NCBI GenBank assembly: GCA_037441475.1
Contig: JBBISB010000001.1
Location: 524,946-588,945 of the forward strand
Direction of reading: 5' to 3'
Origin: Candidatus Iainarchaeum sp.
GTDB taxonomy: Archaea > Iainarchaeota > Iainarchaeia > Iainarchaeales > CSSED10-239
DNA length: 64,000 bases
Shown one piece after another: positions 20,945-43,869 of the stretch; positions within the stretch are counted from its first letter, which is position 1; each line of letters starts with the position of its first letter. Below the pieces are notes generated by a model. The model searched no databases, was not told the origin of the DNA, and saw nothing but the letters and a program-made list of their open reading frames with translations. The translations under genes were made by a program, and so were the position numbers.

Positions 20945-23050
20945 TTATTTTTCTTCCATCTCTATTTTTAGAATATCCAAGTAACCAGTAAACTCATTTT
21001 CCATTATTGGGTTTGCACTTGTTATCCTTATTTTTTTTTTAAACAAAGGAGCATCCAAAACAATTGTCTCATACTCCCCTCCTTCTCCAGCAACATTTAT
21101 TCCTTTTTTTTTGTTAATTATCTTAAGATCAATTAAGTCCTCTTTAGTAAGTTTTTTTCCAAGCCAGGTGTCGTTTAAACCATACCCTGCAACCTTAACT
21201 ATGATTACTTCAAATTTATTATCTAACATCTCTTGGAAAACACCCTCTTGTGTCTTGTTCCAAAGAGGAGAAAACATTCTTAAGCCAAGTTCATTACATA
21301 TCTCTTGTATCCTCTCTCTTTGATAATTACTTTTAATAGCTCCAGTAATTATTCCTTGAAGGGAGTATTTTTCTTTAGCCTTTAAGATTAGTTTCTTAAG
21401 GTCCTTAAGCTCTTCTTCCTTTATCCCTTTTGTCTTTTGTAAAACAAATGGTACCTCTAAGGCTTGTGATTGAAGAGAGAGTATCTTATCATCTACTTTT
21501 TGAAACATGTAGGAGTCTGGGTTTTCAGTCATCATTGTCATAAGGCAAGATATCTTATAGTTTTGTTTTGCCATTATGTGAAAGGCAAGGTTTGAGTCCT
21601 TTCCTCCTGAGAAAAGACATCCTAGGTTTAGGTTTTCTTTTTTAGATACTTCTTTTAAAAATTCGCTCTTTTTTAATTTTTTTTCTTTAGATATTTTTTC
21701 AATCATTTTATCAAATCCACTTCCATATTGTGCTGCTGTTTTTTTTCTCTGGTAATCTTCTTTTAGAAGATTTATTTTTTTTCCAATTTTTCTTAAAACC
21801 ACTTTATTTTCTTCATTGTTTATTTTTTCTTTTTCTTCAAGTAAAAAAGATTCTTCAATAACCTCTTTATCAAGGTATGGTAATCTTACCTCTATGTTGT
21901 TGTTCGTACAAACAACGTCCTCTCTATAAAGATCATTTTCATGCATTTGGTATAACAGGTTTATGCTGTCTTTTAAAACATCAGTTGATTCTTTAAACCT
22001 CGAGTATCCTGCAAACAACTCATCTGCACCAAGTCCAGAGAATATAACCTTTGCTCCATCCTCTCTTGCTTTTAAAGAGGCAAAGTATATAGGTAAGGAC
22101 ACTCCTATTTTTATAGGGTTTGATGACTCTATTTTTTCAACAAGTAAAGGAATTGTCTCTTCAATTTCTTTTTTATTTACTTTTATTTTTTCAACCTTAA
22201 AGCCATACTCCTTCTCTGTTCTTAAAACATTTGAAAGGTCCTTTGGGTCTATTACATTCCCTGCATATGCAAAATATCCTTTGAAAGGTATGTTGTTGTC
22301 TTTTAATATTTTTGAAATTAAAAGGGAGTCAAGACCTGAACTATAAAGCACAGCAAGCTTTTGTTTTTCAGGAACTCTTAAAAGAACTGCTTGTTTAATC
22401 TTTTCATACATCTTTTCTGTTGTTGTCTTTTTCTTTTCTATTTTATAGAAAGGTATTTTCTTAAAAGTGATTTTGTTTTTTAAAACTTCATAAAAAAGTT
22501 CTTTTCTAGGATCAAGAAACTGAATGTTTTTAAAACCAATTTTTTCTAAAACCTTTTTTTCAGAGGCAAAGCCAAAAGATTTATTTTCTAAGGAAAACCA
22601 TAGTGGCTTAATCCCAAGAAGATCTCTTCTTAGGTATATTTTATTTCCATCATAAAAGCAAACAGCATATGGTCCATTCATCTCTTCAAATATCTTAAAA
22701 CCAATCTTCTCTATTCCCTTAATAATAAAGTCAGAGTCATTTTTAACCTTAATCTTATATTTTAAAGAAAGTTCTTTGTAATTATAGATCTCACAGTTTG
22801 AAACAAGTACTTTTCCTTTATGTACTATTGGTTGAGATACATTTCCTGTTATAGAAAGTAAGTTATGTGCAAAAACAACACCTGTAGATATGTTTTCTTT
22901 ATTAAAGTTGTTAATCTCCTTAGAATAAACACACCTACCATTAAAGTAAACTCCATTATTATCCAAACCTCTTTTTTCTAATATCTTAAGGGAGGCAATA
23001 ATCTTTTCTTTACTTTCAGGGACATTAACCAGTCCAATTATTGAGCACAT
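20945..23050 (-). CDS. fusion protein: asparagine-synthase-like glutamine amidotransferase/PP-loop synthetase plus Dph6-like diphthamide synthetase (DUF71) domain
   Basis: N-terminus 'MCSIIG' (Ntn Cys2), 'AVLYSSGLDS' PP-loop, 'FSGLGADELFAGY'. From about residue 474: 'LGCLFSGGKDSNLAFH', 'SPLWNK', 'AGEGGEYETIVLDAPLF', typical of the MJ0570/Dph6 N-domain. Confidence 0.8.
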   Translation of the reverse strand: MCSIIGLVNVPESKEKIIASLKILEKRGLDNNGVYFNGRCVYSKEINNFNKENISTGVVFAHNLLSITGNVSQPIVHKGKVLVSNCEIYNYKELSLKYKIKVKNDSDFIIKGIEKIGFKIFEEMNGPYAVCFYDGNKIYLRRDLLGIKPLWFSLENKSFGFASEKKVLEKIGFKNIQFLDPRKELFYEVLKNKITFKKIPFYKIEKKKTTTEKMYEKIKQAVLLRVPEKQKLAVLYSSGLDSLLISKILKDNNIPFKGYFAYAGNVIDPKDLSNVLRTEKEYGFKVEKIKVNKKEIEETIPLLVEKIESSNPIKIGVSLPIYFASLKAREDGAKVIFSGLGADELFAGYSRFKESTDVLKDSINLLYQMHENDLYREDVVCTNNNIEVRLPYLDKEVIEESFLLEEKEKINNEENKVVLRKIGKKINLLKEDYQRKKTAAQYGSGFDKMIEKISKEKKLKKSEFLKEVSKKENLNLGCLFSGGKDSNLAFHIMAKQNYKISCLMTMMTENPDSYMFQKVDDKILSLQSQALEVPFVLQKTKGIKEEELKDLKKLILKAKEKYSLQGIITGAIKSNYQRERIQEICNELGLRMFSPLWNKTQEGVFQEMLDNKFEVIIVKVAGYGLNDTWLGKKLTKEDLIDLKIINKKKGINVAGEGGEYETIVLDAPLFKKKIRITSANPIMENEFTGYLDILKIEMEEK

Positions 23051-26921: not shown

Positions 26922-28853
26922 ATGAGTGAAAAACTATATTCTCCATCAAAGGAGTTTCAAGAAAAGGCCTACATTAAATCCATGGAAGAGTATCAAAAGA
27001 TATATGAAGCATCCATAAAAGATCCAGAAAGTTTCTGGGCAGCAGCTGCAAAAGATATTACTTGGTTTAAACCTTTTACATCTGTCTTTGAGTGGGAGGA
27101 TAAAGAAAAATATCTTTACTCATGGTTTAAGAACGGAAAATTAAATGTCTCCTACAACTGTTTAGATAGACATTTAGAAAAGAATGCAGAAAAAATAGCT
27201 TTAATCTTTCAAGGGGAAGAAGAAAATAATGTAAAAAAATATACTTACAGACAATTACATTTAGAAGTTTCAAGATTTGCAAATGTTTTAAAAAAACATG
27301 GTATAAAGAAAGGAGATAAGGTATCTATATACACGCCAATGATACCTGAGTTTTTAATTTCTATTTTAGCATGTGCAAGGATAGGTGCAATCCACTCTGT
27401 TGTCTTTGCAGGTTACAGTACACAGACAACAAAAGAAAGAATTGAGTTTGCACAATCAAAGATGCTTATAACTGCTGATGGTTCTTTAAGATCTGGAAAG
27501 AAGATTAATTTCAAAGAAGAGGTTGACAAAGCAATCGCTGATATAAAAGGTATTGAAAAAGTAATCATTGTTAGAAATATAGGCGTTCCTTTAACTTTAA
27601 AAGAAAATGAATTTATTTATCAAGATGAAATTAAAATGAAAGATATCTTGGACGAATGTCCTGCTGAGGAAATGGACTCTGAAGATCCTTTATTTATTTT
27701 ATTTAATTCAGGCACTGTTGAAAAACCAAAAGGTACACTCCACACAAATGCTGGTTATTTAGTATACACAAAAGAGACTTTTAAGTACATATTTGATTAT
27801 CATGGTGATGAGGTTTATTGGTGTACAGCAGACATAGGGTGGATAACTGGTCACTCCTATTTAGTTTACGGTCCACTTGCAAATGCAGCAACAGTTTTAA
27901 TGTATGAAGGAATACCAACATTTCCAGATAATGAAACATACTGGAGAATTATTGAAAAACATAAAGTTAATATTTTTTATACAGCTCCAACAGTTATAAG
28001 GTCTTTAATGAGATATGGAATTGATCCTGTAAAAAAGCATAATCTCTCTTCCTTAAGATTATTAGGTTCTGTTGGAGAGCCTATAAACCATGAAGCATGG
28101 GTCTGGTATTATGAAAACATAGGCAATAGTAAATGCCCAATAGTTGATACCTGGTGGCAAACAGAGTCTGGTGGCTTTCTAATAGCACCATTTCCTGGCG
28201 CCTTTCCTTTAAAACCAGGCTTTGCAACAAAACCTTTCTTTGGTATTGATGCTGATGTCTTAAGAGAGGATGGTTCAAAAGCAGATGTTAATGAACCAGG
28301 TTCAGTGGTTATTAAAAAACCATGGCCTGGGATGATGCGAACAATATACGGTGAACATCAAAAGTATCTTGACATATATATCTCAAAATACCCTGGCTAT
28401 TACTTCTGTGGGGATAGAGGAAAGATTGATGAGAATGGTTATTTTTTCATAATTGGAAGAATGGATGATGTTATAAAAGTTTCAGGTCATCGTTTAGGTT
28501 CTGCAGAGATTGAGTCTGCCTTAGTTTCAAACAAGAATGTTGGTGAAGCGGCTGTTGTTCCTTTCCCTCATGAGATAAAGGGCCAAGCTCTTTATGCTTT
28601 TGTTATTTTAAGAGCAGGCATAAGCCCTAGTGAAGAACTTGTAAAAGAACTAAGAGAGCATGTTTCAAAAGAAATAGGCCCGATTGCAAAACCTGATAAG
28701 ATACAGTTTGTAGATGCTCTTCCAAAGACAAGTAGTGGTAAGATAATAAGAAGGATAGTACGTGCAATTGCTTATGATTCAGAGGACTATGGTGATCTTT
28801 CAACTTTGTTTAACCCAGAAGTTATTGATCAAATAAAAAGTAAAAAGATTTAA
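26922..28853 (+). CDS. acs: acetyl-CoA synthetase (AMP-forming)
   Basis: 'YSWFKNGKLNVSYNCLDRH', 'DIGWITGHSY', 'GRMDDVIKVSGHRLG', 'PKTSSGKIIRR'. Confidence 0.9.
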   Translation: MSEKLYSPSKEFQEKAYIKSMEEYQKIYEASIKDPESFWAAAAKDITWFKPFTSVFEWEDKEKYLYSWFKNGKLNVSYNCLDRHLEKNAEKIALIFQGEEENNVKKYTYRQLHLEVSRFANVLKKHGIKKGDKVSIYTPMIPEFLISILACARIGAIHSVVFAGYSTQTTKERIEFAQSKMLITADGSLRSGKKINFKEEVDKAIADIKGIEKVIIVRNIGVPLTLKENEFIYQDEIKMKDILDECPAEEMDSEDPLFILFNSGTVEKPKGTLHTNAGYLVYTKETFKYIFDYHGDEVYWCTADIGWITGHSYLVYGPLANAATVLMYEGIPTFPDNETYWRIIEKHKVNIFYTAPTVIRSLMRYGIDPVKKHNLSSLRLLGSVGEPINHEAWVWYYENIGNSKCPIVDTWWQTESGGFLIAPFPGAFPLKPGFATKPFFGIDADVLREDGSKADVNEPGSVVIKKPWPGMMRTIYGEHQKYLDIYISKYPGYYFCGDRGKIDENGYFFIIGRMDDVIKVSGHRLGSAEIESALVSNKNVGEAAVVPFPHEIKGQALYAFVILRAGISPSEELVKELREHVSKEIGPIAKPDKIQFVDALPKTSSGKIIRRIVRAIAYDSEDYGDLSTLFNPEVIDQIKSKKI

Positions 28854-28908: not shown

Positions 28909-30942
28909 TTACTTTAAAGGAAATGCTTCTTCCATTTTAAGAAGTTCTTTAAAGTCATTATCAATTTCTTCTTGTATCTTTTTAATTTCTTCTTTATTCT
29001 TTAAAACTTCCTTAAACTTAGTTTGCATTTTTAAAAATTCTTCAATTGGTTTTTTATTTGCAGGCTTATAGTTTACCTTATATTTTCCATCTTCAACTTC
29101 ATAAAGAGGCCAAAAGTTAGTTTCAGTTGCAAGTTTTGAAATATCAATGGTTAAATCTTCAGGGGCCTTCATGTTTGTAGGGCAAGCAGCGTAAACAATA
29201 ATAACAGCAGGTCCTTTCTTTTCAAAAGCCTTTCTAAACTTTTCATGCATGTCTAAAAGGTTTCCTGGGTTTGCAGTTGCAACATATGGTATTTTATGAG
29301 CAATAGCTATCTTTGCAAGATCTTTTTGAAATTCTTTTTTCTCTCCTGGTGTTGTAGTTGTTTGTGCTCCATAAGGTGTTGCAGAGGATCTTTGCGCTCC
29401 TGTATTGTGAACCACAATTCCATCAGCAATAAAGTTGTGTTCTCCATCAACTCTTAAATCTAAAGTTTGTTCAATTCCTCTAGGAATGATATTTTTTATT
29501 TTTCTTGTTTCAAAATATTCATTTCCAATAAAATAATTTTGATATTTGTATTGAGAAGGATATTTTCCAACATCCCATTTATCTTTTTTACTAAAACAGA
29601 TACTATAGTATTCTCCATTACTTAACATCTCTCTATACACTACAAAAGTTCCTTTTGGTTTTTTCTGAACAGTTATTTTTCCAACTCTGTAATCCATTGT
29701 TTGTAGTAATAATCTTAATCTCATAATTAAATCTTTACTTGCTGATAAATATCTACAACTATCTTTTTTCTTTTTATGAATATATCCATCAGACATTAAT
29801 AAACCTTTTACAAACTCTTCTTTTTGATCTATTGGTAAAGTAAAAACCCAAGAAGGTATTGTTTTATTTTTAGCACCTTGCATAAATCCTAAAGAATTAA
29901 TAAATTTTGAAATGTTTACAGAATTATAGTAGATGTAATATTTATCTTTAGATTTATTTTCTTGTCCAAATATTTTTTTATGTATTTTTAAAAGTTCTTT
30001 TCTCTCATTTGTATTTTCTGGAAGAGCAAATCCAATTTCTCCTCTATCTTCTCTAATCCATCCATCTCCAACATAAAATCCTAACCATAACATTAATTCT
30101 TTTGAAGATTCATTAGGAAGTTTAACATCATTAATAATGTTTACTTTATAATCTCCTTTTTTAGTAAGCTTTATTTTATTAAACTGATATGGTTTTCCTT
30201 TATCATATAATTTTCTCATAGTTACAATTTCATCATTTACTTTTAATTGAGAAACTGTTTTCCAAATTAGCTCGTTTTCTTTTCCTCTACCATTCCTTTT
30301 TAAAGTTAAGAAAGGGTGATTTGATGTTGCTTTTATATTTTGGTGTATAGTTTCTATTTCATATACTTTTTTCCTTCCGTTATCAAAAACACCTGTGCAT
30401 TCTTTTAGTACTGGCAAATGTTTTTTTTGATCAAAAGCCCAGACTTTTTCTCCTTTTATAATTTCTGTTATTTTTTTAAGACCTGTTTCTGTCATTATTA
30501 ATGAATCTGTTGATAAACAGTTTTGGTAACCTTCATTATCATAACAAACAAAAACAAAATCATGTCCTCTTTCAAGTGCTCCAGAAAGGCTCTGAAGTCC
30601 AATATCAAAGGCTCCACCATCACCAGCAAATGACATAAATTTAATTTCTTCCTTTATCTTTCCTTTCTTCTTTAAGGCCCTGTAAGCTGTTTCAACACCA
30701 GATATGGTTGCTGCAGAGTTTGCAAAAACAGAGTGGATGAATGGTTCGTTCCAAGATGTATAAGGGTAGATTGTTGTTGTAACTTCAGCACATGATGTGG
30801 CAGATGAAGTTATTATCTTCTTATCAGTTGCAGCATATGCTGTCCTTAAGATAATAGCTATAGGGCACCCAGGACAAGTACGGTGTCCAGGAATAATAGC
30901 TTTTCTTTCATTAATTCTATTTGCAAGTTCAATGTAGTTCAT
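28909..30942 (-). CDS. porB: pyruvate/2-oxoacid:ferredoxin oxidoreductase beta subunit (TPP-binding), intein-containing precursor
   Basis: Exteins: 'PGHRTCPGCP', 'FAGDGGAFDIG', 'VCYDNEGYQN' | intein | 'TGAQRSSATPYGA'. The precursor is 677 aa; after removing 372 aa it is 305 aa, a normal PorB size. Confidence 0.9.
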   Translation of the reverse strand: MNYIELANRINERKAIIPGHRTCPGCPIAIILRTAYAATDKKIITSSATSCAEVTTTIYPYTSWNEPFIHSVFANSAATISGVETAYRALKKKGKIKEEIKFMSFAGDGGAFDIGLQSLSGALERGHDFVFVCYDNEGYQNCLSTDSLIMTETGLKKITEIIKGEKVWAFDQKKHLPVLKECTGVFDNGRKKVYEIETIHQNIKATSNHPFLTLKRNGRGKENELIWKTVSQLKVNDEIVTMRKLYDKGKPYQFNKIKLTKKGDYKVNIINDVKLPNESSKELMLWLGFYVGDGWIREDRGEIGFALPENTNERKELLKIHKKIFGQENKSKDKYYIYYNSVNISKFINSLGFMQGAKNKTIPSWVFTLPIDQKEEFVKGLLMSDGYIHKKKKDSCRYLSASKDLIMRLRLLLQTMDYRVGKITVQKKPKGTFVVYREMLSNGEYYSICFSKKDKWDVGKYPSQYKYQNYFIGNEYFETRKIKNIIPRGIEQTLDLRVDGEHNFIADGIVVHNTGAQRSSATPYGAQTTTTPGEKKEFQKDLAKIAIAHKIPYVATANPGNLLDMHEKFRKAFEKKGPAVIIVYAACPTNMKAPEDLTIDISKLATETNFWPLYEVEDGKYKVNYKPANKKPIEEFLKMQTKFKEVLKNKEEIKKIQEEIDNDFKELLKMEEAFPLK
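29404..30519 (-). mobile_element. intein (372 aa) with LAGLIDADG homing-endonuclease domain inside porB
   Basis: Block A 'CLSTDSLIM' (Cys1), block B 'ATSNHPFLT', LAGLIDADG motifs 'LWLGFYVGDGWI' and 'FVKGLLMSDGYI', blocks F/G 'LDLRVDGEHNFIADGIVVHN' followed by the +1 Thr. Confidence 0.9.
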
Positions 30943-30953
30943 TTATTTTCACT

Positions 30954-32114
30954 TTATTTTTTAAGTCCTAAATATTTTTCTTTATTTGGTTTTCCTTTTA
31001 AAAAACCATTTAATAAATCTTCAATGTCTTTTTCAAAAATATCTCTTCCTCCAAGACCAAAGACATAAGAGGTAACATTTATTTTCTTATCATTATCACA
31101 AACAGAAAGTTTAATTTCTTTATAAAGTGGAGAAGAGGATCCAGGACTTTGAGCTCTATCAAGAACAATTACTTCTTTTGCTTTTTTTAAGGCCTTAAGA
31201 TACTCTGAATAAATAAAAGGTCTAAAAAGCACTGGTCTTAAAAGCCCAACCTTTTTTCCTTCTTTTCTAAGTTTGTCAATAACATTTTTAGTTGTCTGTG
31301 CAGTTGAGGACATTACAACAATAACAACCTCAGCATCTTTTAAAAAATAATCTTCATAAATTTCTATTTTCTTTCCAAAGGTTTTTTCAAACTCTTTTGA
31401 AACTTCTAAAAATTTCTTTTCAGCCTCTTCCATGGCTTTAAAAAGTTCAACCCTAATCTCAAAGAAGGTGTTTGGAAGTGAAAGGGCACCTATGGAGATT
31501 GGTTTTTTAGTATCTAAAAGATTATATGTTGTCTTATATTCTCCTACAAATTTCTTAACAACCTTATCTTCATACACTTCTAAATTCTCTAAGTTATGAG
31601 AGGTATAAAAACCATCAATACAAACCATGATAGGAAGAGATACACTTTCAGCAAACTTAAAAGCAAAGAGAGTCATGTCATATGCTTCTTGCGCACTTTC
31701 ACAAAAAACCATCATCCATCCTTGATCAAGACATGCCATGGCGTCTGAATGATCACAGTGTATGTTAATAGGTGCAGATACAGCTCTGTTTGCAACAGGC
31801 ATAACCACAGGAAGTCTTAAACCAGAAGTTACTGATAACATTTCATACATGTACATTAAACCTTGTGAGGCTGTTGCTGTAACGCTTCTTGCACCTGATG
31901 CTGCTGCACCTACAACTGCTGAAAGTGCAGAGTGTTCTGATTCAACTAAGATAAGCTCTGTTGTAACTTTTCCATTACTATGGTGGTTTGCATAACTTTC
32001 AATGATTGGTGTTTGTGGGGTTATAGGATACATTGCAAACACATCAACATCCACTTGTTTTATTGCATAGGAGATTGCTTCTCCTCCATTAAGTGCTATT
32101 TTTTTATTTTTCAT
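30954..32114 (-). CDS. porA: pyruvate/2-oxoacid:ferredoxin oxidoreductase alpha subunit
   Basis: 'GGEAISYAIKQVDVDVFAMYPITPQTPIIE' and size are typical of PorA. Confidence 0.9.
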   Translation of the reverse strand: MKNKKIALNGGEAISYAIKQVDVDVFAMYPITPQTPIIESYANHHSNGKVTTELILVESEHSALSAVVGAAASGARSVTATASQGLMYMYEMLSVTSGLRLPVVMPVANRAVSAPINIHCDHSDAMACLDQGWMMVFCESAQEAYDMTLFAFKFAESVSLPIMVCIDGFYTSHNLENLEVYEDKVVKKFVGEYKTTYNLLDTKKPISIGALSLPNTFFEIRVELFKAMEEAEKKFLEVSKEFEKTFGKKIEIYEDYFLKDAEVVIVVMSSTAQTTKNVIDKLRKEGKKVGLLRPVLFRPFIYSEYLKALKKAKEVIVLDRAQSPGSSSPLYKEIKLSVCDNDKKINVTSYVFGLGGRDIFEKDIEDLLNGFLKGKPNKEKYLGLKK

Positions 32115-32136: not shown

Positions 32137-32418
32137 TTACTCTTCTTCCATCTTTATACATTTAACAGGGCATACCTTCTCACAGATCCCACACCCTTTA
32201 CAAAACTCTAAGTCTGTTTCTGTTCTTACAAGCTTACCATCTTTATTCTTCTTAGCTAAGATACAGTTATCAGGACAATAAACATAGCATATCATACACT
32301 GCACACATCTCTTTGAGTCCCAAATAGGTTTTTTATGTCTCCAGTTTCCTGTACTATACTGTTTAGAGGTTCCTCCTTCTAGGACCCCACCAATAATTTT
32401 TTTATTTTTTTCACTCAT
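32137..32418 (-). CDS. porD: pyruvate/2-oxoacid:ferredoxin oxidoreductase delta subunit (2x[4Fe-4S])
   Basis: Two CxxCxxCxxxCP motifs: 'CVQCMICYVYCP' and 'CKGCGICEKVCP'. Confidence 0.9.
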   Translation of the reverse strand: MSEKNKKIIGGVLEGGTSKQYSTGNWRHKKPIWDSKRCVQCMICYVYCPDNCILAKKNKDGKLVRTETDLEFCKGCGICEKVCPVKCIKMEEE

Positions 32419-32424
32419 AACAAA

Positions 32425-32994
32425 TCATTTCTTATAAATTTTAATATCCTCAAACCCTCTTTTAAGGCAATTGAGGTTTGGTAAAATAAAATGTTCTTTT
32501 CTTTTTTTTGTAAATGTTTCTTTAATAACTTTTTCAACATCTTTATATCTTAAGATATCTATTTTCTTTTCTTTAAAAACCTTTAAAAGTCCGCCAATTA
32601 AAACAATGTTTGGGTTGTTTGCTTTTATTTCTTCTAAGGATATCTTAGTTCCATCTGTTGTATATATCTCTTTACTAATAATCTCTTTATTAATCTCTTT
32701 ATTAGTGTTTATAATAACAGGGGAGGTAAATCTCTTTATTTCCTCTAAAACATTAACTAAGTTCCCGTCAATAACTATAACAAAATCAGGTTTAATAACA
32801 GGCTCATGTGTCCTTATAGGGTTATTTGATAACCTTACAAATGCCTTAACAGGAGCTCCTCTTCTCTCAGGCCCATACTCAGGAAAGGCTTGAACATACC
32901 TACCTGCTTCAACACCAGCTTCAGCGATTATCTGAGCACAGGTTTTAGCACCTTGCCCTCCTCTTCCATAAACAGCAATACTTATTGTTTCCAT
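32425..32994 (-). CDS. porG: pyruvate/2-oxoacid:ferredoxin oxidoreductase gamma subunit
   Basis: 'IAVYGRGGQGAKTCAQIIAEA' and 'YGPERRGAPV'. Confidence 0.9.
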   Translation of the reverse strand: METISIAVYGRGGQGAKTCAQIIAEAGVEAGRYVQAFPEYGPERRGAPVKAFVRLSNNPIRTHEPVIKPDFVIVIDGNLVNVLEEIKRFTSPVIINTNKEINKEIISKEIYTTDGTKISLEEIKANNPNIVLIGGLLKVFKEKKIDILRYKDVEKVIKETFTKKRKEHFILPNLNCLKRGFEDIKIYKK

Positions 32995-33528: not shown

Positions 33529-35253
33529 TTACTTCTTTTTATATTTAGTGTATACTTTATTTATTATCCATGTTAAAAGTACACATCCAATAGTTAACAA
33601 AAGTATACCTAGTAAACCTTGCATAAACTTATCAGCAACTGCAAAGGATACACCAATACCAAAGATTAAAAGTCCACTAAACAGTTTCAAAACTTTTCCA
33701 TGTTTTTCATCCATCTTAGATATTTTTAAAGTAAATATAGCTATTGCAAATAAAATTATTTCATCAAGAAGATAGATTAGCATATATATTCCTAAAAGAG
33801 TATAGTAACCTGCACTTGAGATTGTACTATTTGCTATCATGTTAGCCCATAGTAAAGGTAGGCCAGCTGTACAAGGTATCTCTAAAATAGTAACCCCTGC
33901 CGCTAAAATAATAGTTCCAAGCATAACTGCAAAGAGACTATTTTTAGGATTCATTATGTTCCTTATTCTATCATATATTTTTGGTTTTTCTTTATCAGAG
34001 ATTGTTAATGAAATTCCTTTCTTATACCAGAAATAATCTTTTATGTTAATAAGACCAAAGATAACTGCTATTAAGACAATGGTTATCTTAATTATTGGAC
34101 TGTAAAAGAATATCATGGCATTCAAGATACTTGTAATAAACAGACCAAAGATAACAGCTGTAACTGCTAAGAAGGTAATACCTATTAAGAATATTTTCTT
34201 TCTAGACCCAGAGTATACAACAATACTTAATAAGAATAATAGTACCCATAAAGAACATGGGTTTAAACCATCTACAAAAGAAATAATTAAGGTGTTTAAA
34301 AATAAAGATTTATGTCCTAGATCAATCTCCTTTTCAAAAAGCTTAATAGTTTTATTATCTTCTCCAGAAACATAGTTTGTTGAAGAAGGTATTTTATTTG
34401 TTTTTGAAAGTATTGCTTTTTCAGGGCATGAACAGTTGATGTTTGTTTTATAACATCTATCAATTTCCTTATCAAGATTATTCTTAATGTTTACTTCTCC
34501 GGTTAGATATGTTTCTCCAATAAAGGCTATTGGAAACACTTCTACTTTAAGAGAATAAAGTTCCTTATATTCTGCAAAGATGACTTTGTTTTCTTCTATT
34601 GAAAGATCGTGTGTTTCTAAAATAAGGTCAGGATATTTGCTTATAAGGTAGTTTGTGTGTTCTAAAGTATTTTTACATTGTGAGCAGTCAGGGACATAAA
34701 ACAAATGAACATAAACATCTTTTACTTTTGTTTTTTCAATAGTTATTGGTTTTTTATCAGACTGTATGATATTAACATAACTTTGATCTGTTGTGTAAAG
34801 TTGCCATATCTTTGGTTTATTTAAATAATCTATACTGTCCTTACATTCTTCTTCAAGGCAAGAATCTACTTTTTCAATAATCTCTTGCTTTATACTTTCT
34901 GAAAAACCAATCCATGATTTATTAGAAATAAAAGTTATTGGAACACTTGTTGTTCTTTGAGAGAATGTTTTTCCAAACTCTAAGAGAAGTTTTGAGGCTT
35001 CTTTTTGAGTATCAAGCTCATAGTAATGGACAGTGACATTTATATTTTCATTTACATAGTCCTTTAAAAAAGCCTTTTCTTGTGCGCAGTAAGGGCATGT
35101 AGAGGTTCCAAAGAAATAGATGTTTACTTCTTTTTGCTCTTGTGCATAGAAGATTCCTGTAATTAATGTTAAAAAAATTAATATTAAAAATATGTTTTTA
35201 TAGTTCATTGTGTATTTCATCTCTTTAAATAATATATATATATTAATAAACAT
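33529..35253 (-). CDS. membrane thiol:disulfide oxidoreductase: two extracytoplasmic thioredoxin-like domains fused to a CcdA/DsbD-type transmembrane core
   Basis: Signal/TM, then 'FFGTSTCPYCAQEKAF' (CxxC), a second 'YVPDCSQCKN' (CxxC), then a polytopic domain with 'DGLNPCSLWV' and 'LEIPCTAGLP' (the two membrane-embedded Cys of DsbD-beta/CcdA). The start may be at the internal Met at 35220. Confidence 0.7.
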   Translation of the reverse strand: MFINIYILFKEMKYTMNYKNIFLILIFLTLITGIFYAQEQKEVNIYFFGTSTCPYCAQEKAFLKDYVNENINVTVHYYELDTQKEASKLLLEFGKTFSQRTTSVPITFISNKSWIGFSESIKQEIIEKVDSCLEEECKDSIDYLNKPKIWQLYTTDQSYVNIIQSDKKPITIEKTKVKDVYVHLFYVPDCSQCKNTLEHTNYLISKYPDLILETHDLSIEENKVIFAEYKELYSLKVEVFPIAFIGETYLTGEVNIKNNLDKEIDRCYKTNINCSCPEKAILSKTNKIPSSTNYVSGEDNKTIKLFEKEIDLGHKSLFLNTLIISFVDGLNPCSLWVLLFLLSIVVYSGSRKKIFLIGITFLAVTAVIFGLFITSILNAMIFFYSPIIKITIVLIAVIFGLINIKDYFWYKKGISLTISDKEKPKIYDRIRNIMNPKNSLFAVMLGTIILAAGVTILEIPCTAGLPLLWANMIANSTISSAGYYTLLGIYMLIYLLDEIILFAIAIFTLKISKMDEKHGKVLKLFSGLLIFGIGVSFAVADKFMQGLLGILLLTIGCVLLTWIINKVYTKYKKK

Positions 35254-39257: not shown

Positions 39258-41408
39258 TTAAACAGAAAGAAGATTTTTTAAAAGATCTCTTTCTTCTCTA
39301 TACACACTATCCTTATACTCTAATTGTTCTTTATTAATAATTATTGCATTGATATTTGAATTTACAAAAGACTTAATATCAGCAGCTGTATTTTTAGAGT
39401 TAATCTCTGCGATTCTCATAATCTTGTTTTCTTTACAAACCTTAATAACTTCTTTAACCTTTGTAAAATCAATATCTTCAAGGTTTAAGGTAAGATATTC
39501 AATTCCTCTTGAAAGATACTCTAAGATAAGTCCTTCCTTTAAAGATTCAACTATTACTCCAAGCCTTGAGTCTGTGTTTTCTTTAATAGGGGTAATTTCG
39601 TCTGCTGATTTAATATTCTCTAAAAGAATATTTACCTTTCCTCCCATCTCAATAATTGCTTCAAGTTCATAGCTTGATACATTTTCTGTCATTAAGTTTC
39701 TTGTATGTGTGTTTATTTTATAAAATATTTCCTTGCCTTCAAATATTTTTGTAATTTCTAGAAGTTTATTTTTTATGTTAGGCACCAATAGGTTAAGATT
39801 TTCAAGCATGCTTCCTTTCTCATAACTTGTAAACAGTGAGTCTATTGTTAAGACAATACCATCTATATCAGGAAGATTTATTTTTTTAATTTCATCTAAA
39901 CCATTTATTCTAATATATGTTTTTGTAATTGTTTTAGGGTAAATTGGTTCCCTGTTTTGTGCTCTTTCAATAACAACTTCATTCTCTCTCTTTGTTTCAA
40001 CAACTTGTTTTACCTTAGGAGGCGCCACATACCCTGAAACACTGTACACTTTACCGTTAAAACCATTAACTAAAACAGATTGTCCATCTCTTAATATTTC
40101 TGTAGCTCTTTCTGTATGCACTACACAAGGAACATCATATTTTTTAGCAATCAAGGCAGCATGACAGATAGCACTTCCAGCATCAGTTACAATCCCTTTT
40201 GCTTTTCTTAAAACTTGTGACATTTCAAGAGTTGTCATTTTAGTAACAAAGATTGTGTTTTCATCAATATTTTTAAGATCTTCTTTATCATTAACTATTT
40301 TTACTGTACCAATGGAGATTCCACTAGACACTCCAATTCCTTCAAGAAGTAAACTTTTTTTATATGTGTCTAGTTTTTCTTGATAGGTGGTTGCATCTAT
40401 TTTCTTTTTTTGTTTTATTTTCTTTAAATCAGGGTTAATTGGATTAACACTAACTATCATTATCTCTTCATTAGCATCTATTACCCAGTTAACTTCTAAA
40501 GCTGTGCCGTAGATAAGTTCAAGCTTGTTTGCTATCTGTGCAAGTTCATTTAAGTCTCTTTGATCTAACTTTTGTTTATCATTATCTTTTTGATCAACTG
40601 GTGCTTTGCTGGTTTTTCCAACAATTCTTTTAAGCATCCATTCTTGATTTGATTTTGTTTTTTTAATAATAGAGAATGTTTTCTTATGTATCTCATAATG
40701 ATCAGGAGTTACTTCTTTAATTAAGCTTTTTCCTCCAAACCCATATATTGCTTCTATTATTGCAACATCTTTCGAATCTTCTTTTGAGGTTATCATTATT
40801 CCTGATTTTTTACCAGGTATCATTTTTTGAATAATTATTGATAAATGTATTTTATTTTCTTCAAAACCTTTTCTATATTTATATTCTAAAATTTCAGGAG
40901 AGTAAAGATCTGCCCAGCATTCCTTTACGCTATTAAGTATCTCATCTCTTCCTTTAATATTTAAAAAACCAGTATGTCTTTCAATAAAGTCAAGTTCCTT
41001 TAAAGGGTATTCTTCACTTGACACTGAGGCTCTAATAGCTACAAACTCATCCACTTTTGTGTTCATGAAACCAACTTTAGCTTCTCCTATCTTAATATAC
41101 ATTTTTAGAACTTCTGAAGCAAAGTCTTCATCTATTTTCTGTTTTAAGAAAAGCTCTCTTATTTGGTTTGATTTATTTTGAATATCTTCTTTCTTTGTAT
41201 AATCTATTGTTTCTAGAATTTGGTTTATTTTTTCTCTAAGTTGGTTTTTTTGTATAAAGTTAAAGAAGTTTTTATAGTTTATGACAAAACCTCTAGGAAG
41301 CGGTAGGTTTGCTTTTGCAATTTCTGAGAGTATATGTGCTTTATAACCCACTTCTAGGACCTCATGGTCTGATATTTCTTTTATCCATTTAATATTTGTT
41401 TCAAGCAT
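39258..41408 (-). CDS. phosphoenolpyruvate synthase-like (pyruvate, water dikinase family) protein with divergent C-terminal domain
   Basis: N-terminal PEP/pyruvate-binding ATP-grasp ('VGYKAHILSEIAKANLPLPRGFVI') and phospho-His swivel domain ('GIVTDAGSAICHAALIAKKYDVPCVV'). The C-terminal TIM-barrel region lacks the usual GSNDLTQ-type motif. Confidence 0.7.
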   Translation of the reverse strand: MLETNIKWIKEISDHEVLEVGYKAHILSEIAKANLPLPRGFVINYKNFFNFIQKNQLREKINQILETIDYTKKEDIQNKSNQIRELFLKQKIDEDFASEVLKMYIKIGEAKVGFMNTKVDEFVAIRASVSSEEYPLKELDFIERHTGFLNIKGRDEILNSVKECWADLYSPEILEYKYRKGFEENKIHLSIIIQKMIPGKKSGIMITSKEDSKDVAIIEAIYGFGGKSLIKEVTPDHYEIHKKTFSIIKKTKSNQEWMLKRIVGKTSKAPVDQKDNDKQKLDQRDLNELAQIANKLELIYGTALEVNWVIDANEEIMIVSVNPINPDLKKIKQKKKIDATTYQEKLDTYKKSLLLEGIGVSSGISIGTVKIVNDKEDLKNIDENTIFVTKMTTLEMSQVLRKAKGIVTDAGSAICHAALIAKKYDVPCVVHTERATEILRDGQSVLVNGFNGKVYSVSGYVAPPKVKQVVETKRENEVVIERAQNREPIYPKTITKTYIRINGLDEIKKINLPDIDGIVLTIDSLFTSYEKGSMLENLNLLVPNIKNKLLEITKIFEGKEIFYKINTHTRNLMTENVSSYELEAIIEMGGKVNILLENIKSADEITPIKENTDSRLGVIVESLKEGLILEYLSRGIEYLTLNLEDIDFTKVKEVIKVCKENKIMRIAEINSKNTAADIKSFVNSNINAIIINKEQLEYKDSVYREERDLLKNLLSV

Positions 41409-43098: not shown

Positions 43099-43869
43099 AT
43101 GATAAATTACTTACTTACCATTAAAAACCTAAACGTTAGTGTTGAGGATAAAAAAATATTAAATAACTTTAATATTGATATTAAAAACCAAGAGATACAT
43201 GCAATCATGGGTCCAAACGGTTCAGGAAAATCCACTCTAGCCTATACTCTAATGGGTCACCCTAAATACAATGTAATTTCAGGTAAAATCACTTTTAATA
43301 AAAAGAACTTATTTTCTCTTTCTGTTGATAAAAGAACAAAGGAAGGGATATTTTTATCTTTTCAAACACCTTTAGAGATATCTGGTCTTAATTATTTTTC
43401 TTTTTTAAAAAATTCTTTCAATTCCATGCATAAAGAAAAATTATCTCCTCTAAAGTTTAACACCTTAGTTAAAGAAAAAATGAAACTATTAAATATGCCA
43501 GAAAACTTTTTATCTCGTGACCTAAACTCAGGTTTTTCAGGTGGAGAAAAGAAGAGAGCAGAGATTTTACAACTTATCTTAATGAACCCTAAGCTCGCTA
43601 TCTTAGATGAAACAGATTCAGGGCTTGACATTGATTCCCTAAAATTAGTATGTAGTTCAGTTAATAATTTAAAGAAAGAAAATAAAGAATTTTCTGCAAT
43701 AGTTATCACCCACTATAAAAAAATACTTGACTTTTTAAAACCTGATTTCGTGCATGTAATGTATGATGGCAGAATAATAAAAAGTGGAGATAAGTCTTTT
43801 GCAACATACATAGAAAAAAATGGTTTTACAAAAATAATTGATGATTATAAAAAAAAGAATAATTTATGA
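43099..43869 (+). CDS. sufC: Fe-S cluster assembly ATPase SufC
   Basis: Walker A 'GPNGSGKST', ABC signature 'FSGGEKKR', Walker B 'LAILDETDSGLD', 'ITHY'. Confidence 0.9.
   Translation: MINYLLTIKNLNVSVEDKKILNNFNIDIKNQEIHAIMGPNGSGKSTLAYTLMGHPKYNVISGKITFNKKNLFSLSVDKRTKEGIFLSFQTPLEISGLNYFSFLKNSFNSMHKEKLSPLKFNTLVKEKMKLLNMPENFLSRDLNSGFSGGEKKRAEILQLILMNPKLAILDETDSGLDIDSLKLVCSSVNNLKKENKEFSAIVITHYKKILDFLKPDFVHVMYDGRIIKSGDKSFATYIEKNGFTKIIDDYKKKNNL

What the first reader, a model, noticed from the sequence alone, without database searches (positions are those of the whole stretch)
29404..30519. LAGLIDADG intein inserted in the TPP-binding motif of PorB, a central-metabolism host gene
- The porB ORF is 677 aa instead of about 300 aa.
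- A 372-aa insert starts with Cys ('CLSTDSLIM') and ends 'GIVVHN' followed by Thr.
- It carries block B 'TSNHPF' and two LAGLIDADG motifs ('LGFYVGDGWI', 'LLMSDGYI').
- It interrupts the highly conserved 'YDNEGYQN|TGAQRS' segment (canonical YxNTGGQxS) next to the GDG TPP-binding motif.
- Inteins overwhelmingly sit in replication, repair or nucleotide-metabolism proteins. A 2-oxoacid:ferredoxin oxidoreductase host is, to my knowledge, unusual.
- MCM, Topo VI, RadA and RPA in this window are all intein-free.
- POR activity, and so acetyl-CoA and ferredoxin supply, would depend on protein splicing. The Cys1 nucleophile could make that splicing redox-sensitive.
Basis: partly seen in the sequence, partly recalled or inferred. 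Interest (0 to 1): 0.7.

Follow-up and report, generated by a model that had tools for sequence, protein, structure and literature searches.

The report
Mobile intein inside pyruvate oxidoreductase PorB
The beta subunit gene of a pyruvate:ferredoxin oxidoreductase in this small DPANN archaeon is interrupted at its active site by a self-splicing, self-spreading protein element (an intein with a homing endonuclease); this is a textbook intein in an uncommon host gene, and it turns out to be widespread in uncultured anaerobes.

Summary
ORF 28909..30942 (-) encodes a 677-aa PorB precursor, and residues 142-513 (window 29404..30519) form a 372-aa class-1 intein with a two-motif LAGLIDADG homing endonuclease. 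Removing it gives a 305-aa PorB that aligns without a gap to solved OFOR/PFOR beta subunits. It also matches intein-free alleles of exactly 305 aa (84-89% identical) with the same junction, ...YDNEGYQN|TGAQ.... The insertion lies between the residues equivalent to Asn996 and Thr997 of D. africanus PFOR, five residues after the Mg2+/TPP-motif Asn, so the precursor must splice to be active.

It is not unique. At least 120 protein clusters and 185 species-representative genomes carry an intein at this same site, in DPANN and other archaea and in MAGs labelled bacterial. PorB has at least three intein sites around the TPP motif. Catalytic residues are conserved, dN/dS is low, presence/absence is patchy, and inteins are more alike than their exteins; all this indicates active homing.

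I found no paper describing a PorB intein, although JGI's annotation already labels such proteins. The closest genome is Candidatus Forterrea multitransposorum. Redox-controlled splicing remains speculation. Verdict: a real but mechanistically ordinary new member of a known kind.

The parts
28909..30942 (-). porB precursor ORF (677 aa): N-extein + intein + C-extein
   Evidence: The ORF is listed. Pfam finds TPP_enzyme_C, Intein_splicing and LAGLIDADG_3. The best NCBIfam match is PorB.
30520..30942 (-). N-extein (residues 1-141). It carries three Cys of the [4Fe-4S] site (C23, C26, C51), the GDG motif (107-109), the Mg-motif Asn136, and the -1 residue Asn141.
   Evidence: Coordinates are. In the alignment to D. 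africanus PFOR (7plm numbering), D108 = Asp963, N136 = Thr991 and N141 = Asn996.
30616..30624 (-). GDG of the TPP/Mg2+-binding motif (residues 107-109)
   Evidence: Read directly from the sequence. It aligns to the GDG of 5c4i_C, 9bt4_C and 1b0p.
29404..30519 (-). 372-aa class-1 intein (precursor residues 142-513)
   Evidence: The structure model has pLDDT 87. Fold matches to HEN-containing inteins reach TM 0.74.
30502..30519 (-). Splicing block A, 'CLSTDS'; Cys1 is the first nucleophile
   Evidence: Cys1 is invariant in 119/119 homologous inteins.
30310..30327 (-). Splicing block B, 'TSNHPF' (TxxH: Thr65 and His68 of the intein)
   Evidence: T65, N67, H68 and P69 are invariant in 119/119.
29533..30156 (-). 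LAGLIDADG homing-endonuclease domain (about intein residues 122-329)
   Evidence: It aligns to PI-PkoII over residues 122-278. Pfam LAGLIDADG_3 covers 232-305. The model shows an alpha/beta region at 124-287. dN/dS against Forterrea is 0.17.
30055..30084 (-). LAGLIDADG motif 1, 'LGFYVGDGWI'; catalytic Asp152 of the intein
   Evidence: Asp is kept in 116/119 homologues.
29779..29808 (-). LAGLIDADG motif 2, 'KGLLMSDGYI'; catalytic Asp244 of the intein
   Evidence: Asp is kept in 116/119 homologues.
29404..29463 (-). Splicing blocks F/G, 'LDLRVDGEHNFIADGIVVHN'; Asp354, penultimate His371, terminal Asn372
   Evidence: D354, H371 and N372 are invariant in 119/119. NCBIfam intein_Cterm is above its cutoff.
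28909..29403 (-). C-extein (precursor residues 514-677 plus stop). It starts with the +1 nucleophile Thr (codon 29401..29403) and contains the fourth cluster Cys ('AACPT').
   Evidence: All 120 homologues start the C-extein with TGxQxS. It aligns to DaPFOR from Thr997, and the Cys of 'AACPT' aligns to Cys1071.
30954..32114 (-). porA (alpha subunit, 386 aa)
   Evidence: Pfam POR_N and PFOR_II.
32137..32418 (-). porD (delta subunit, 93 aa, 2x[4Fe-4S] ferredoxin-like)
   Evidence: Pfam Fer4 and Fer4_21.
32425..32994 (-). porG (gamma subunit, 189 aa)
   Evidence: Pfam POR, PF01558.
26922..28853 (+). Convergent neighbour: AMP-forming acetyl-CoA synthetase (643 aa). It provides metabolic context (pyruvate -> acetyl-CoA -> acetate) and is not part of the intein.
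   Evidence: Pfam ACAS_N, AMP-binding and AMP-binding_C. Ca. Forterrea has the same layout.

Best explanation
**What it is.** A canonical class-1 intein carrying an intact two-motif LAGLIDADG homing endonuclease. It sits in-frame in porB, the TPP- and [4Fe-4S]-binding beta subunit of a four-subunit (porGDAB) pyruvate/2-oxoacid:ferredoxin oxidoreductase. The organism is a close relative of the DPANN archaeon Candidatus Forterrea multitransposorum.

**Splicing (inferred from conserved residues, not assayed).**
1. The 677-aa precursor is translated.
2. Cys1 makes an N-S acyl shift, assisted by block B Thr65/His68.
3. The +1 Thr attacks the thioester and forms a branched ester.
4. Asn372, assisted by His371 and block F Asp354, cyclises and releases the intein.
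5. An O-N shift leaves a native Asn141-Thr peptide bond in a 305-aa PorB.

**Why splicing is needed.** The intein separates the GDG...N Mg2+/TPP loop, the pocket Asn (= DaPFOR Asn996) and three cluster cysteines from the rest of the TPP fold and the fourth cysteine. The unspliced precursor therefore cannot be an active subunit, and POR activity requires splicing.

**Mobility.** The freed endonuclease is predicted to cut intein-less porB alleles at the conserved ...TAYCARAAY|ACAGGNGCNCAR... site. Double-strand-break repair then copies the intein in (homing). This explains its patchy but wide spread. It is best seen as a selfish mobile element that persists by occupying an indispensable, highly conserved active-site sequence, not as a regulator.
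For: **Shown here**
- Exact boundaries and all splicing residues are present.
- Profile matches exceed the curated cutoffs.
- The predicted HINT + LAGLIDADG fold is confident and best matches the TliVMA, PhoVMA, PI-PkoII and PI-SceI inteins.
- The excised sequence matches NCBIfam PorB in one stretch (E=1.5e-101). It aligns without a gap across the junction to 5c4i_C, 9bt4_C and 1b0p/7plm.
- Intein-free alleles of exactly 305 aa are 84-89% identical, with the same junction peptide VFVCYDNEGYQN|TGAQ[RK]SSATP. Their empty-site DNA is 59-62/72 nt identical to the window's joined flanks.
- All 119 full-length homologous inteins that could be extracted, and all 80 genome loci, occupy the same site.
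- C1, T65, H68, D354, H371 and N372 are invariant. The two endonuclease Asp residues are kept in 116/119 each.
- dN/dS against Ca. Forterrea is 0.12 for the intein (0.17 for the endonuclease domain) and 0.057 for the exteins.

**Evidence for mobility**
- Intein-bearing and intein-free exteins interleave on an extein tree, with at least 30 parsimony changes among 238 sequences.
- Mean intein identity exceeds mean extein identity, 63.7% against 59.3%.
- Pairs labelled archaeal and bacterial share up to 81% intein identity but only 45% C-extein identity.
- Mini-intein (P0127) and endonuclease-degenerate (P0124) forms exist at the same site.
- One bacterial locus, an Omnitrophota single-cell genome, has RecR and Fur genes flanking the operon.

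**Role of the -1 Asn.** DaPFOR Asn996 lines the pyruvate pocket and rotates when pyruvate binds (PMC5020499).
Against: - No experiment shows splicing or endonuclease activity; both are inferred from conserved residues and comparative patterns.
- The NCBIfam PorB equivalog score of the spliced protein (339.6 bits) is below the curated cutoff of 405, and VOR-type models score close behind. Pyruvate specificity is therefore likely but not proven.
- The bacterial and archaeal labels come from MAG records. Apart from one locus, I did not check them.
- Some comparisons are biased. The C-extein includes a variable tail, and both homologue sets are top-hit samples.
Confidence: 0.93

Rival explanations
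1. Domesticated regulatory intein. Splicing is conditional (for example inhibited by oxidation of Cys1), so that POR, the central energy-yielding step in this reduced genome, matures only under reducing conditions.
For: - Cys1 is the nucleophile and is invariant.
- The host enzyme is oxygen-sensitive and central to metabolism. The Ca. [quoted passage not shown]
- Intein Cys41 is invariant and Cys308 nearly so.
- Redox-controlled inteins exist elsewhere (own knowledge: Pab MoaA, Mma PolII).
Against: - The +1 residue is Thr, not Cys, and the nearest N-extein Cys is at -9. The Cys pairs used by known redox-trapped inteins are therefore absent.
- Cys41 aligns with a buried Val of the Ssp DnaB intein, so it is probably structural.
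- Very close relatives do well without the intein.
- The endonuclease is conserved, which is the signature of a selfish element rather than a domesticated switch.
- Nothing here tests conditionality.
Confidence: 0.08
2. Splicing-competent intein whose endonuclease no longer homes. It would be inherited only vertically, and the patchy distribution would come from repeated precise loss.
For: - The window and Ca. Forterrea share the intein at 94% identity alongside 95% extein identity, which is compatible with vertical descent over that distance.
- A few homologues have lost a catalytic Asp, and mini-inteins exist.
Against: - Both catalytic Asp residues are present here and in 116/119 homologues.
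- The endonuclease domain has dN/dS 0.17.
- Intein identity exceeds extein identity in 1240 of 7021 pairs by more than 10 points.
- One pair reaches 81% intein identity against 45% C-extein identity across the domain labels.
- Precise loss of an intein is itself rare without a homing or recombination partner.
Confidence: 0.1
3. Non-functional insertion or assembly artefact: porB is a pseudogene or a chimeric contig.
For: The intein has a lower GC content than its exteins (25.7% against 32-37%).
Against: - The reading frame is uninterrupted over 677 codons.
- The identical protein occurs on four contigs.
- The same architecture is present in the complete Ca. Forterrea genome and in 185 species genomes.
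- Both exteins and intein are under purifying selection.
- All catalytic residues are intact.
Confidence: 0.01

Closest known systems
Homing-endonuclease-containing archaeal inteins with solved structures (TliVMA 7qsu/7qss, PhoVMA 7qst, PI-PkoII 2cw7, PI-PfuI 1dq3, PI-SceI 1vde)
   Same: - The architecture is the same: a HINT splicing domain split by a two-motif LAGLIDADG endonuclease.
- Foldseek gives TM 0.74/0.75 to 7qsu at E=3.6e-20.
- PI-PkoII is the best PDB sequence hit, E=2.8e-10.
- It shares the class-1 residue set (Cys1, TxxH, HN, +1 nucleophile).
   Different: - Sequence identity is only 14-18%.
- The host genes differ (V-ATPase A subunit, DNA polymerase, RNR).
- This intein is smaller than PI-PkoII and PI-SceI (372 aa against 454-537). 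Whether it has an extra DNA-recognition region was not examined.
- The +1 residue is Thr, not Cys as in PI-SceI (own knowledge; the +1 residues of the other listed inteins were not checked).
SufB (Pps1), T4-like portal protein and ClpP inteins from metagenomes
   Same: These are the closest sequence relatives of this intein outside PorB. They show about 30-34% identity over the whole 372 aa, endonuclease included (P0132, P0191, P0209, P0242, P0166, P0170, P0241, P0249).
   Different: The host proteins and insertion sites differ. The SufB gene in this window (43866..45311) is itself intein-free.
Inteins in metabolic enzymes of Methanocaldococcus jannaschii (PEP synthase, glutamine-fructose-6-phosphate transaminase, UDP-glucose dehydrogenase) as listed in InBase (own knowledge, not checked here)
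   Same: They are precedents for inteins in central or biosynthetic metabolism rather than in information processing, inserted at conserved catalytic or cofactor motifs.
   Different: The host enzyme differs. I found no TPP-dependent or 2-oxoacid:ferredoxin oxidoreductase host in the papers I could search.
Multi-site intein hosts such as haloarchaeal MCM (four sites close together; PMC10643990)
   Same: PorB also has several insertion sites packed into about 35 residues of its most conserved region. These are GDG[GA]|x, F[VI]|CYDN and YxN|TG. Double-intein alleles exist (P0007, L007, L065).
   Different: The host is an oxidoreductase, not a replicative helicase. Interference between neighbouring PorB inteins has not been studied.

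Membership tests
Class-1 intein (HINT protein-splicing domain) | Nucleophile (Cys/Ser) as first residue (block A) | tested here: met
   Cys142 of the precursor is Cys1 of the intein. It is invariant in 119/119 homologues.
Class-1 intein (HINT protein-splicing domain) | Block B TxxH motif | tested here: met
   In 'TSNHPF', T65 and H68 are invariant in 119/119. NCBIfam intein_Nterm scores 33.1 bits against a cutoff of 24.5.
Class-1 intein (HINT protein-splicing domain) | Blocks F/G ending in His-Asn, followed by a Cys/Ser/Thr +1 extein residue | tested here: met
   The sequence is '...LDLRVDGEHNFIADGIVVHN|T'. D354, H371 and N372 are invariant, and the +1 Thr is present in 120/120. NCBIfam intein_Cterm scores 25.6 bits against a cutoff of 15.6.
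Class-1 intein (HINT protein-splicing domain) | In-frame insertion whose removal restores a contiguous conserved host protein; intein-less alleles exist | tested here: met
   The 305-aa spliced product aligns without a gap to 5c4i_C, 9bt4_C and 1b0p. Intein-free alleles of 305 aa have an identical junction.
Class-1 intein (HINT protein-splicing domain) | HINT fold | tested here: met
   The AlphaFold2 model has pLDDT 87. Foldseek matches full inteins at TM 0.65-0.74 and mini-inteins (Ssp/Npu DnaB, RecA) at rmsd about 2.3 A. Pfam Intein_splicing scores 60.9 bits against a cutoff of 35.8.
Class-1 intein (HINT protein-splicing domain) | Demonstrated autocatalytic protein splicing | not testable with these tools
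   This requires expressing the precursor and detecting the ligated exteins and the free intein.
LAGLIDADG (DOD) homing endonuclease, intein-embedded, two-motif monomer | Two LAGLIDADG motifs, each ending in a catalytic acidic residue | tested here: met
   'LGFYVGDGW' carries D152 and 'GLLMSDGY' carries D244. Each Asp is kept in 116/119 homologues. Pfam LAGLIDADG_3 scores 40.6 bits against a cutoff of 22.5.
LAGLIDADG (DOD) homing endonuclease, intein-embedded, two-motif monomer | Alpha/beta endonuclease fold inserted between the N- and C-terminal splicing halves | tested here: met
   The model shows a helix/strand region at 124-287 between the beta-rich halves. The whole model superposes on TliVMA, PI-PkoII and PI-PfuI.
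LAGLIDADG (DOD) homing endonuclease, intein-embedded, two-motif monomer | Site-specific cleavage of the intein-less allele, and homing | not testable with these tools
   Support is indirect only: patchy presence/absence, intein identity above extein identity, and dN/dS 0.17 for the endonuclease domain.
PorB, beta subunit of four-subunit pyruvate:ferredoxin oxidoreductase (OFOR family) | TPP-binding domain with the GDG-X(~26)-N Mg2+/diphosphate motif and the YxNTGxQxS segment | tested here: met
   Pfam TPP_enzyme_C gives E=2.5e-22 as a single stretch after excision. GDG is at 107-109, Asn136 is present, and 'YQN|TGAQRS' aligns to DaPFOR 994-1002.
PorB, beta subunit of four-subunit pyruvate:ferredoxin oxidoreductase (OFOR family) | Score above the curated NCBIfam PorB equivalog cutoff (which implies pyruvate specificity) | tested here: inconclusive
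   NF008819 PorB is the best match (339.6 bits, E=1.5e-101) but falls below the cutoff of 405. The VOR-type model NF008818 scores 312.9.
PorB, beta subunit of four-subunit pyruvate:ferredoxin oxidoreductase (OFOR family) | Encoded in an operon with gamma, delta and alpha subunits | tested here: met
   porG (PF01558), porD (Fer4 dicluster) and porA (POR_N, PFOR_II) lie immediately upstream on the same strand.
PorB, beta subunit of four-subunit pyruvate:ferredoxin oxidoreductase (OFOR family) | Four Cys ligands of the TPP-proximal [4Fe-4S] cluster | tested here: inconclusive
   CxxC (C23, C26), C51 and the Cys of 'AACPT' are present. The last aligns with DaPFOR Cys1071. The first three fall outside the part aligned to DaPFOR, and the ligand assignment rests on my memory of the DaPFOR structure.

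The most novel reading that the evidence does not exclude
The PorB intein family is more than a parasite in two ways. (i) Its splicing is conditional (on redox state or cofactor), so it gates maturation of the only identified ATP-yielding pathway in ultra-small anaerobic symbionts. (ii) It moves repeatedly between archaea (DPANN, methanogen relatives) and bacteria (Omnitrophota, Patescibacteria, Aerophobetes) that share anoxic habitats, which would make it a traceable marker of inter-domain DNA exchange. Part (ii) has some support here: 81% intein identity against 45% C-extein identity across domain labels. Part (i) has none. The probability given is for both parts being true together.
Probability: 0.07. 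Interest if true: 0.7.

Novelty: new member of a known kind. Interest (0 to 1): 0.35.

Why it matters
- **Annotation.** PorB genes of about 675 aa in DPANN and other uncultured anaerobes are intact, not fused or broken. NCBI records call many of them 'hypothetical protein' or 'LAGLIDADG family homing endonuclease'. Metabolic reconstructions should count them as functional POR.
- **Intein biology.**
  - It adds a TPP-dependent, iron-sulfur, central-carbon enzyme to a host list dominated by replication and repair ATPases.
  - PorB has at least three insertion sites clustered at the cofactor and substrate site.
  - All stages of the homing cycle are visible: empty site, full intein, degenerate endonuclease and mini-intein.
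  - The intein occurs in genomes labelled as both archaeal and bacterial. This gives a good natural system for studying homing and inter-domain transfer in organisms that cannot be cultured.
- **Protein engineering.** It offers a family of more than 100 natural Cys1/Thr+1 inteins, including mini-inteins of about 160-170 aa.
- **Limits.** It does not reveal a new mechanism.

Tried and rejected
- **Literature.** Searches for a described PorB/POR/OFOR intein found nothing relevant. The terms were intein + ferredoxin oxidoreductase; inteins + DPANN; intein + PorB / pyruvate synthase / TPP-binding; intein + the DPANN phylum names; and inteins + insertion site + metagenom + ferredoxin. The main text of Novikova 2016 has no 'pyruvate' or 'ferredoxin', and its supplements are not held. 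The Ca. Forterrea genome paper discusses PFOR but never mentions an intein. InBase itself could not be queried.
- **Pseudogene or assembly artefact.** Rejected, because the frame is intact, the architecture is replicated on other contigs and the gene is under purifying selection.
- **Bacterial intein-like (BIL) or Hedgehog-type Hint domain.** Rejected. The element has HN plus a +1 nucleophile, a LAGLIDADG insert and seamless extein restoration. BIL and Hog structures are only weak partial fold matches.
- **Redox switch through a Cys pair.** No suitably placed partner Cys was found (+1 is Thr; the nearest extein Cys is at -9).
- **Other inteins in the window.** None were found in the 20 ORFs tested: the 19 of at least 330 aa plus porD.
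- **Opposite strand.** No ORF of at least 80 aa lies on the + strand within the intein.
Full report
**1.

The minus-strand ORF 28909..30942 encodes 677 aa. 'CLSTDSLIM' begins at residue 142 and 'GIVVHN' ends at residue 513.

Several independent lines show this is an intein and not a chance resemblance:
- Pfam finds Intein_splicing (E=1.7e-16; 60.9 bits, cutoff 35.8) and LAGLIDADG_3 (E=3.2e-10; 40.6 bits, cutoff 22.5) in the insert.
- The NCBIfam intein N- and C-terminal models are both above their cutoffs.
- The best matches among solved structures are PI-PkoII and the Ssp DnaB intein.
- An AlphaFold2 model built on 14 homologues is confident (pLDDT 87, pTM 0.87). Its best PDB matches are endonuclease-containing inteins: TliVMA (TM 0.74/0.75), PhoVMA, PI-PkoII, PI-SceI and PI-PfuI. 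Mini-inteins follow.

No intein domain was found in any of the 20 window ORFs tested (the 19 of at least 330 aa plus porD), apart from porB itself. These include RPA, MCM, Topo VI A and B, RadA, PEP synthase/PPDK, SufB and ArgRS.

**2. The host gene and the exact insertion point**

The host gene is the last gene of a porG-porD-porA-porB operon. After in-silico excision the 305-aa product behaves as a normal PorB:
- It matches NCBIfam PorB in a single stretch (E=1.5e-101). The score of 339.6 bits is below the curated equivalog cutoff of 405, so pyruvate specificity is likely but not formally assigned.
- The Pfam TPP_enzyme_C match changes from two pieces to one.
- It aligns without any gap across the junction to oxalate oxidoreductase beta (5c4i_C), a PFOR beta subunit (9bt4_C) and D. 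africanus PFOR (1b0p/7plm).

Counting along the 7plm alignment gives these equivalences:

| Window PorB | D. africanus PFOR |
|---|---|
| Asp108 (GDG) | Asp963 |
| Asn136 | Thr991 |
| Asn141 (-1 residue) | Asn996 |
| +1 Thr | Thr997 |

Yan et al. 2016 (PMC5020499) describe Asn996 as lining the pyruvate pocket and rotating when pyruvate binds. The intein therefore sits directly after a substrate-pocket residue, five residues after the Mg2+-motif Asn. It also separates three candidate [4Fe-4S] cysteines (C23, C26, C51) from the fourth, in 'AACPT', which aligns with DaPFOR Cys1071. The ligand assignment comes from my memory of the DaPFOR structure. By inference, an unspliced precursor cannot form the cofactor site.

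**3. Seamless restoration is confirmed by natural intein-less alleles**

A search with the spliced extein returned PorB proteins of 303-307 aa at 84-89% identity (P0271-P0274). Their junction peptide, VFVCYDNEGYQN|TGAQ[RK]SSATP, is identical to the window's. The corresponding DNA (L002-L004) is 59-62/72 nt identical to the window's joined flanks. These intein-free exteins are closer to the window's extein than some intein-bearing ones, for example P0003 at 83.6%.

**4. The site is widely occupied**

All 120 best clusters (90% identity) found with the full precursor are PorB proteins with an intein at this site. The 119 full-length ones carry an intein of 366-372 aa at exactly ...Y.N|C[LI][SAT]...HN|TG.Q.S; the 120th is an N-terminally truncated record. 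JGI's pipeline already names several of them 'pyruvate/2-oxoacid:ferredoxin oxidoreductase beta subunit/intein/homing endonuclease'. NCBI records mostly say 'hypothetical protein'.

A scan of 185,579 species-representative genomes with an intein-only alignment found 185 genomes. All 80 retrieved loci have the intein at the same PorB site. The best hit, at 94% intein identity, is the complete genome of Candidatus Forterrea multitransposorum (CP045477.1). That genome has the same porGDAB-acs layout and is 87.5% identical in DNA to the window over this region.

The record titles span many lineages:
- DPANN archaea: Woese-, Nano-, Aenigmat- and Micrarchaeota, and 'ainarchaeum'.
- Other archaea: Altiarchaeales, Bathyarchaeia, Hadesarchaea, and Methanosarcinales/Methanophagales.
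- Bacteria: Omnitrophota, Aerophobetes, Planctomycetia, Clostridia, Cloacimonadota, Patescibacteria and Vermiphilus.

I checked only one bacterial locus. L016, from an Omnitrophota single-cell genome, has RecR and Fur genes beside the operon. The other labels come from MAG records and are unverified.

**5. PorB has at least three insertion sites**

The library of 50%-identity representatives and inspection of the sequences show three sites within about 35 residues:

| Site | Junction | Examples |
|---|---|---|
| a | GDG[GA]\|C... | P0123, P0128, P0129, P0205, P0246, and the double-intein P0007 |
| b | F[VI]\|CL...N\|CYDN, with inteins of about 540 aa | P0144, P0150, P0152, P0168, P0179, P0195 |
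| c | YxN\|TG | this window |

Pfam confirms intein and LAGLIDADG domains in the representatives tested. Site c also carries a mini-intein of about 170 aa (P0127) and a form without a recognisable LAGLIDADG domain (P0124).

Outside PorB, the nearest relatives of this intein (about 30-34% identity) sit in SufB, T4-like portal proteins and ClpP.

**6. Evidence that both activities are maintained and the element is mobile**

- Across 119 homologous inteins, C1, T65, H68, D354, H371, N372 and the +1 Thr are invariant. The two LAGLIDADG catalytic Asp residues are kept in 116/119 each.
- Against Ca. Forterrea, dN/dS is 0.057 for the exteins, 0.12 for the intein and 0.17 for the endonuclease domain. 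Synonymous divergence is lower in the intein (0.30) than in the exteins (0.44).
- On an extein NJ tree of 119 intein-bearing and 119 intein-free PorBs, presence/absence needs at least 30 changes.
- Mean pairwise intein identity (63.7%) exceeds mean extein identity (59.3%).
- Among genome loci, pairs labelled archaeal and bacterial reach 81% intein identity with only 45% C-extein identity.

Two caveats apply. The samples are top-hit sets, and the C-extein includes a variable tail. Taken together with the empty, full, degenerate and mini forms, the data fit the classical homing cycle.

**7. Mechanism**

This is a class-1 intein. The steps below are inferred, not shown:
1. N-S acyl shift at Cys1.
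2. Trans-esterification to the +1 Thr.
3. Cyclisation of Asn372.
4. O-N shift to a native Asn141-Thr bond.

The released LAGLIDADG enzyme should cleave intein-less porB at the conserved YxN|TG coding sequence and home by double-strand-break repair.

The intein occupies an indispensable site in an enzyme that the Ca. [quoted passage not shown] That paper could identify only one energy-generating route, the one running through pyruvate and acetyl-CoA to acetate. Imprecise loss of the intein would therefore be lethal, which is the usual explanation for intein persistence.

**8. What is not supported**

Nothing here supports redox-regulated splicing:
- The +1 residue is Thr.
- The nearest N-extein Cys is at -9.
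- The invariant intein Cys41 aligns with a core Val of the Ssp DnaB intein.
- Close relatives lack the intein altogether.

**9. Novelty**

I found no paper describing an intein in PorB or any 2-oxoacid:ferredoxin oxidoreductase. The large survey of Novikova et al. 2016 reports 66.9% of archaeal intein hosts in COG category L and 8.3% in F, and it does not mention pyruvate or ferredoxin in its main text. The Forterrea genome paper does not mention the intein. InBase could not be queried.

The element is mechanistically ordinary and is already labelled by at least one automated pipeline. I therefore rate it a new member of a known kind, with moderate interest. That interest lies in the three clustered sites, the apparent cross-domain spread and the reduced-genome context.

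Noticed in passing
window 1-64000; L005 (CP045477.1 673186-680301): The window comes from a close relative of the DPANN archaeon Candidatus Forterrea multitransposorum. It shows 87.5% DNA identity over 5.7 kb and the same porGDAB-acs gene order. The identical PorB protein occurs in Logan assembly SRR11582162 and on contigs up to 671 kb.
   Followed up: partly
window 43866..45311 (+): The SufB gene (481 aa) is intein-free, although SufB inteins from metagenomes are the closest non-PorB sequence relatives of the PorB intein (about 30% identity).
   Followed up: partly
L002 986-1714; L003 2268-2996; L004 2160-2888: The closest intein-free relatives have a 242-aa ORF between porA and porB. It gives a weak Methyltransf_31 match and has a 'VLEIGSGSGRFADFLL' SAM-binding-like motif. 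No porD lies between the 192-aa ORF upstream of porA (presumed porG) and porA. The operon architecture therefore differs from the window even though PorB is 84-89% identical.
   Followed up: partly
P0007; L007; L065; L025: Some PorB genes carry two inteins, at sites a and c, giving proteins of about 1020 aa. The ORF in L025 is 1231 aa, which could mean a further insertion or a fusion. In P0007 the first LAGLIDADG Asp of the site-c intein is replaced by Asn ('LYLENGW').
   Followed up: partly
window 29404..30519 (-), intein residues 41 and 308: Intein Cys41 is invariant (119/119) and Cys308 nearly so (114/119), although neither belongs to a known splicing block. Cys41 aligns with a buried Val of the Ssp DnaB intein. 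Their role is untested.
   Followed up: partly
window 20945..23050 (-): A 701-aa ORF fuses glutamine amidotransferase and asparagine-synthase domains to a C-terminal Diphthami_syn_2 (diphthamide synthase-like ATP-pyrophosphatase) domain.
   Followed up: no
window 33529..35253 (-) and 48552..50123 (+): Two large ORFs (574 and 523 aa) have only a short glutaredoxin-like or Thioredoxin_4 domain and are otherwise unannotated. They may be membrane or extracellular redox proteins.
   Followed up: no
window 28909..30942 (-) vs L005 2578-4611: Between the window and Ca. Forterrea, synonymous divergence is lower in the intein (dS 0.30) than in the flanking exteins (dS 0.44). This could reflect more recent exchange of the intein, or the codon bias of its AT-rich sequence.
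   Followed up: no
window 39258..41408 (-): A PEP synthase/PPDK-like gene (716 aa; PPDK_N + PEP-utilizers) lies 8 kb from the por operon. It is intein-free, although PEP synthase hosts an intein in M. jannaschii (own knowledge).
   Followed up: no
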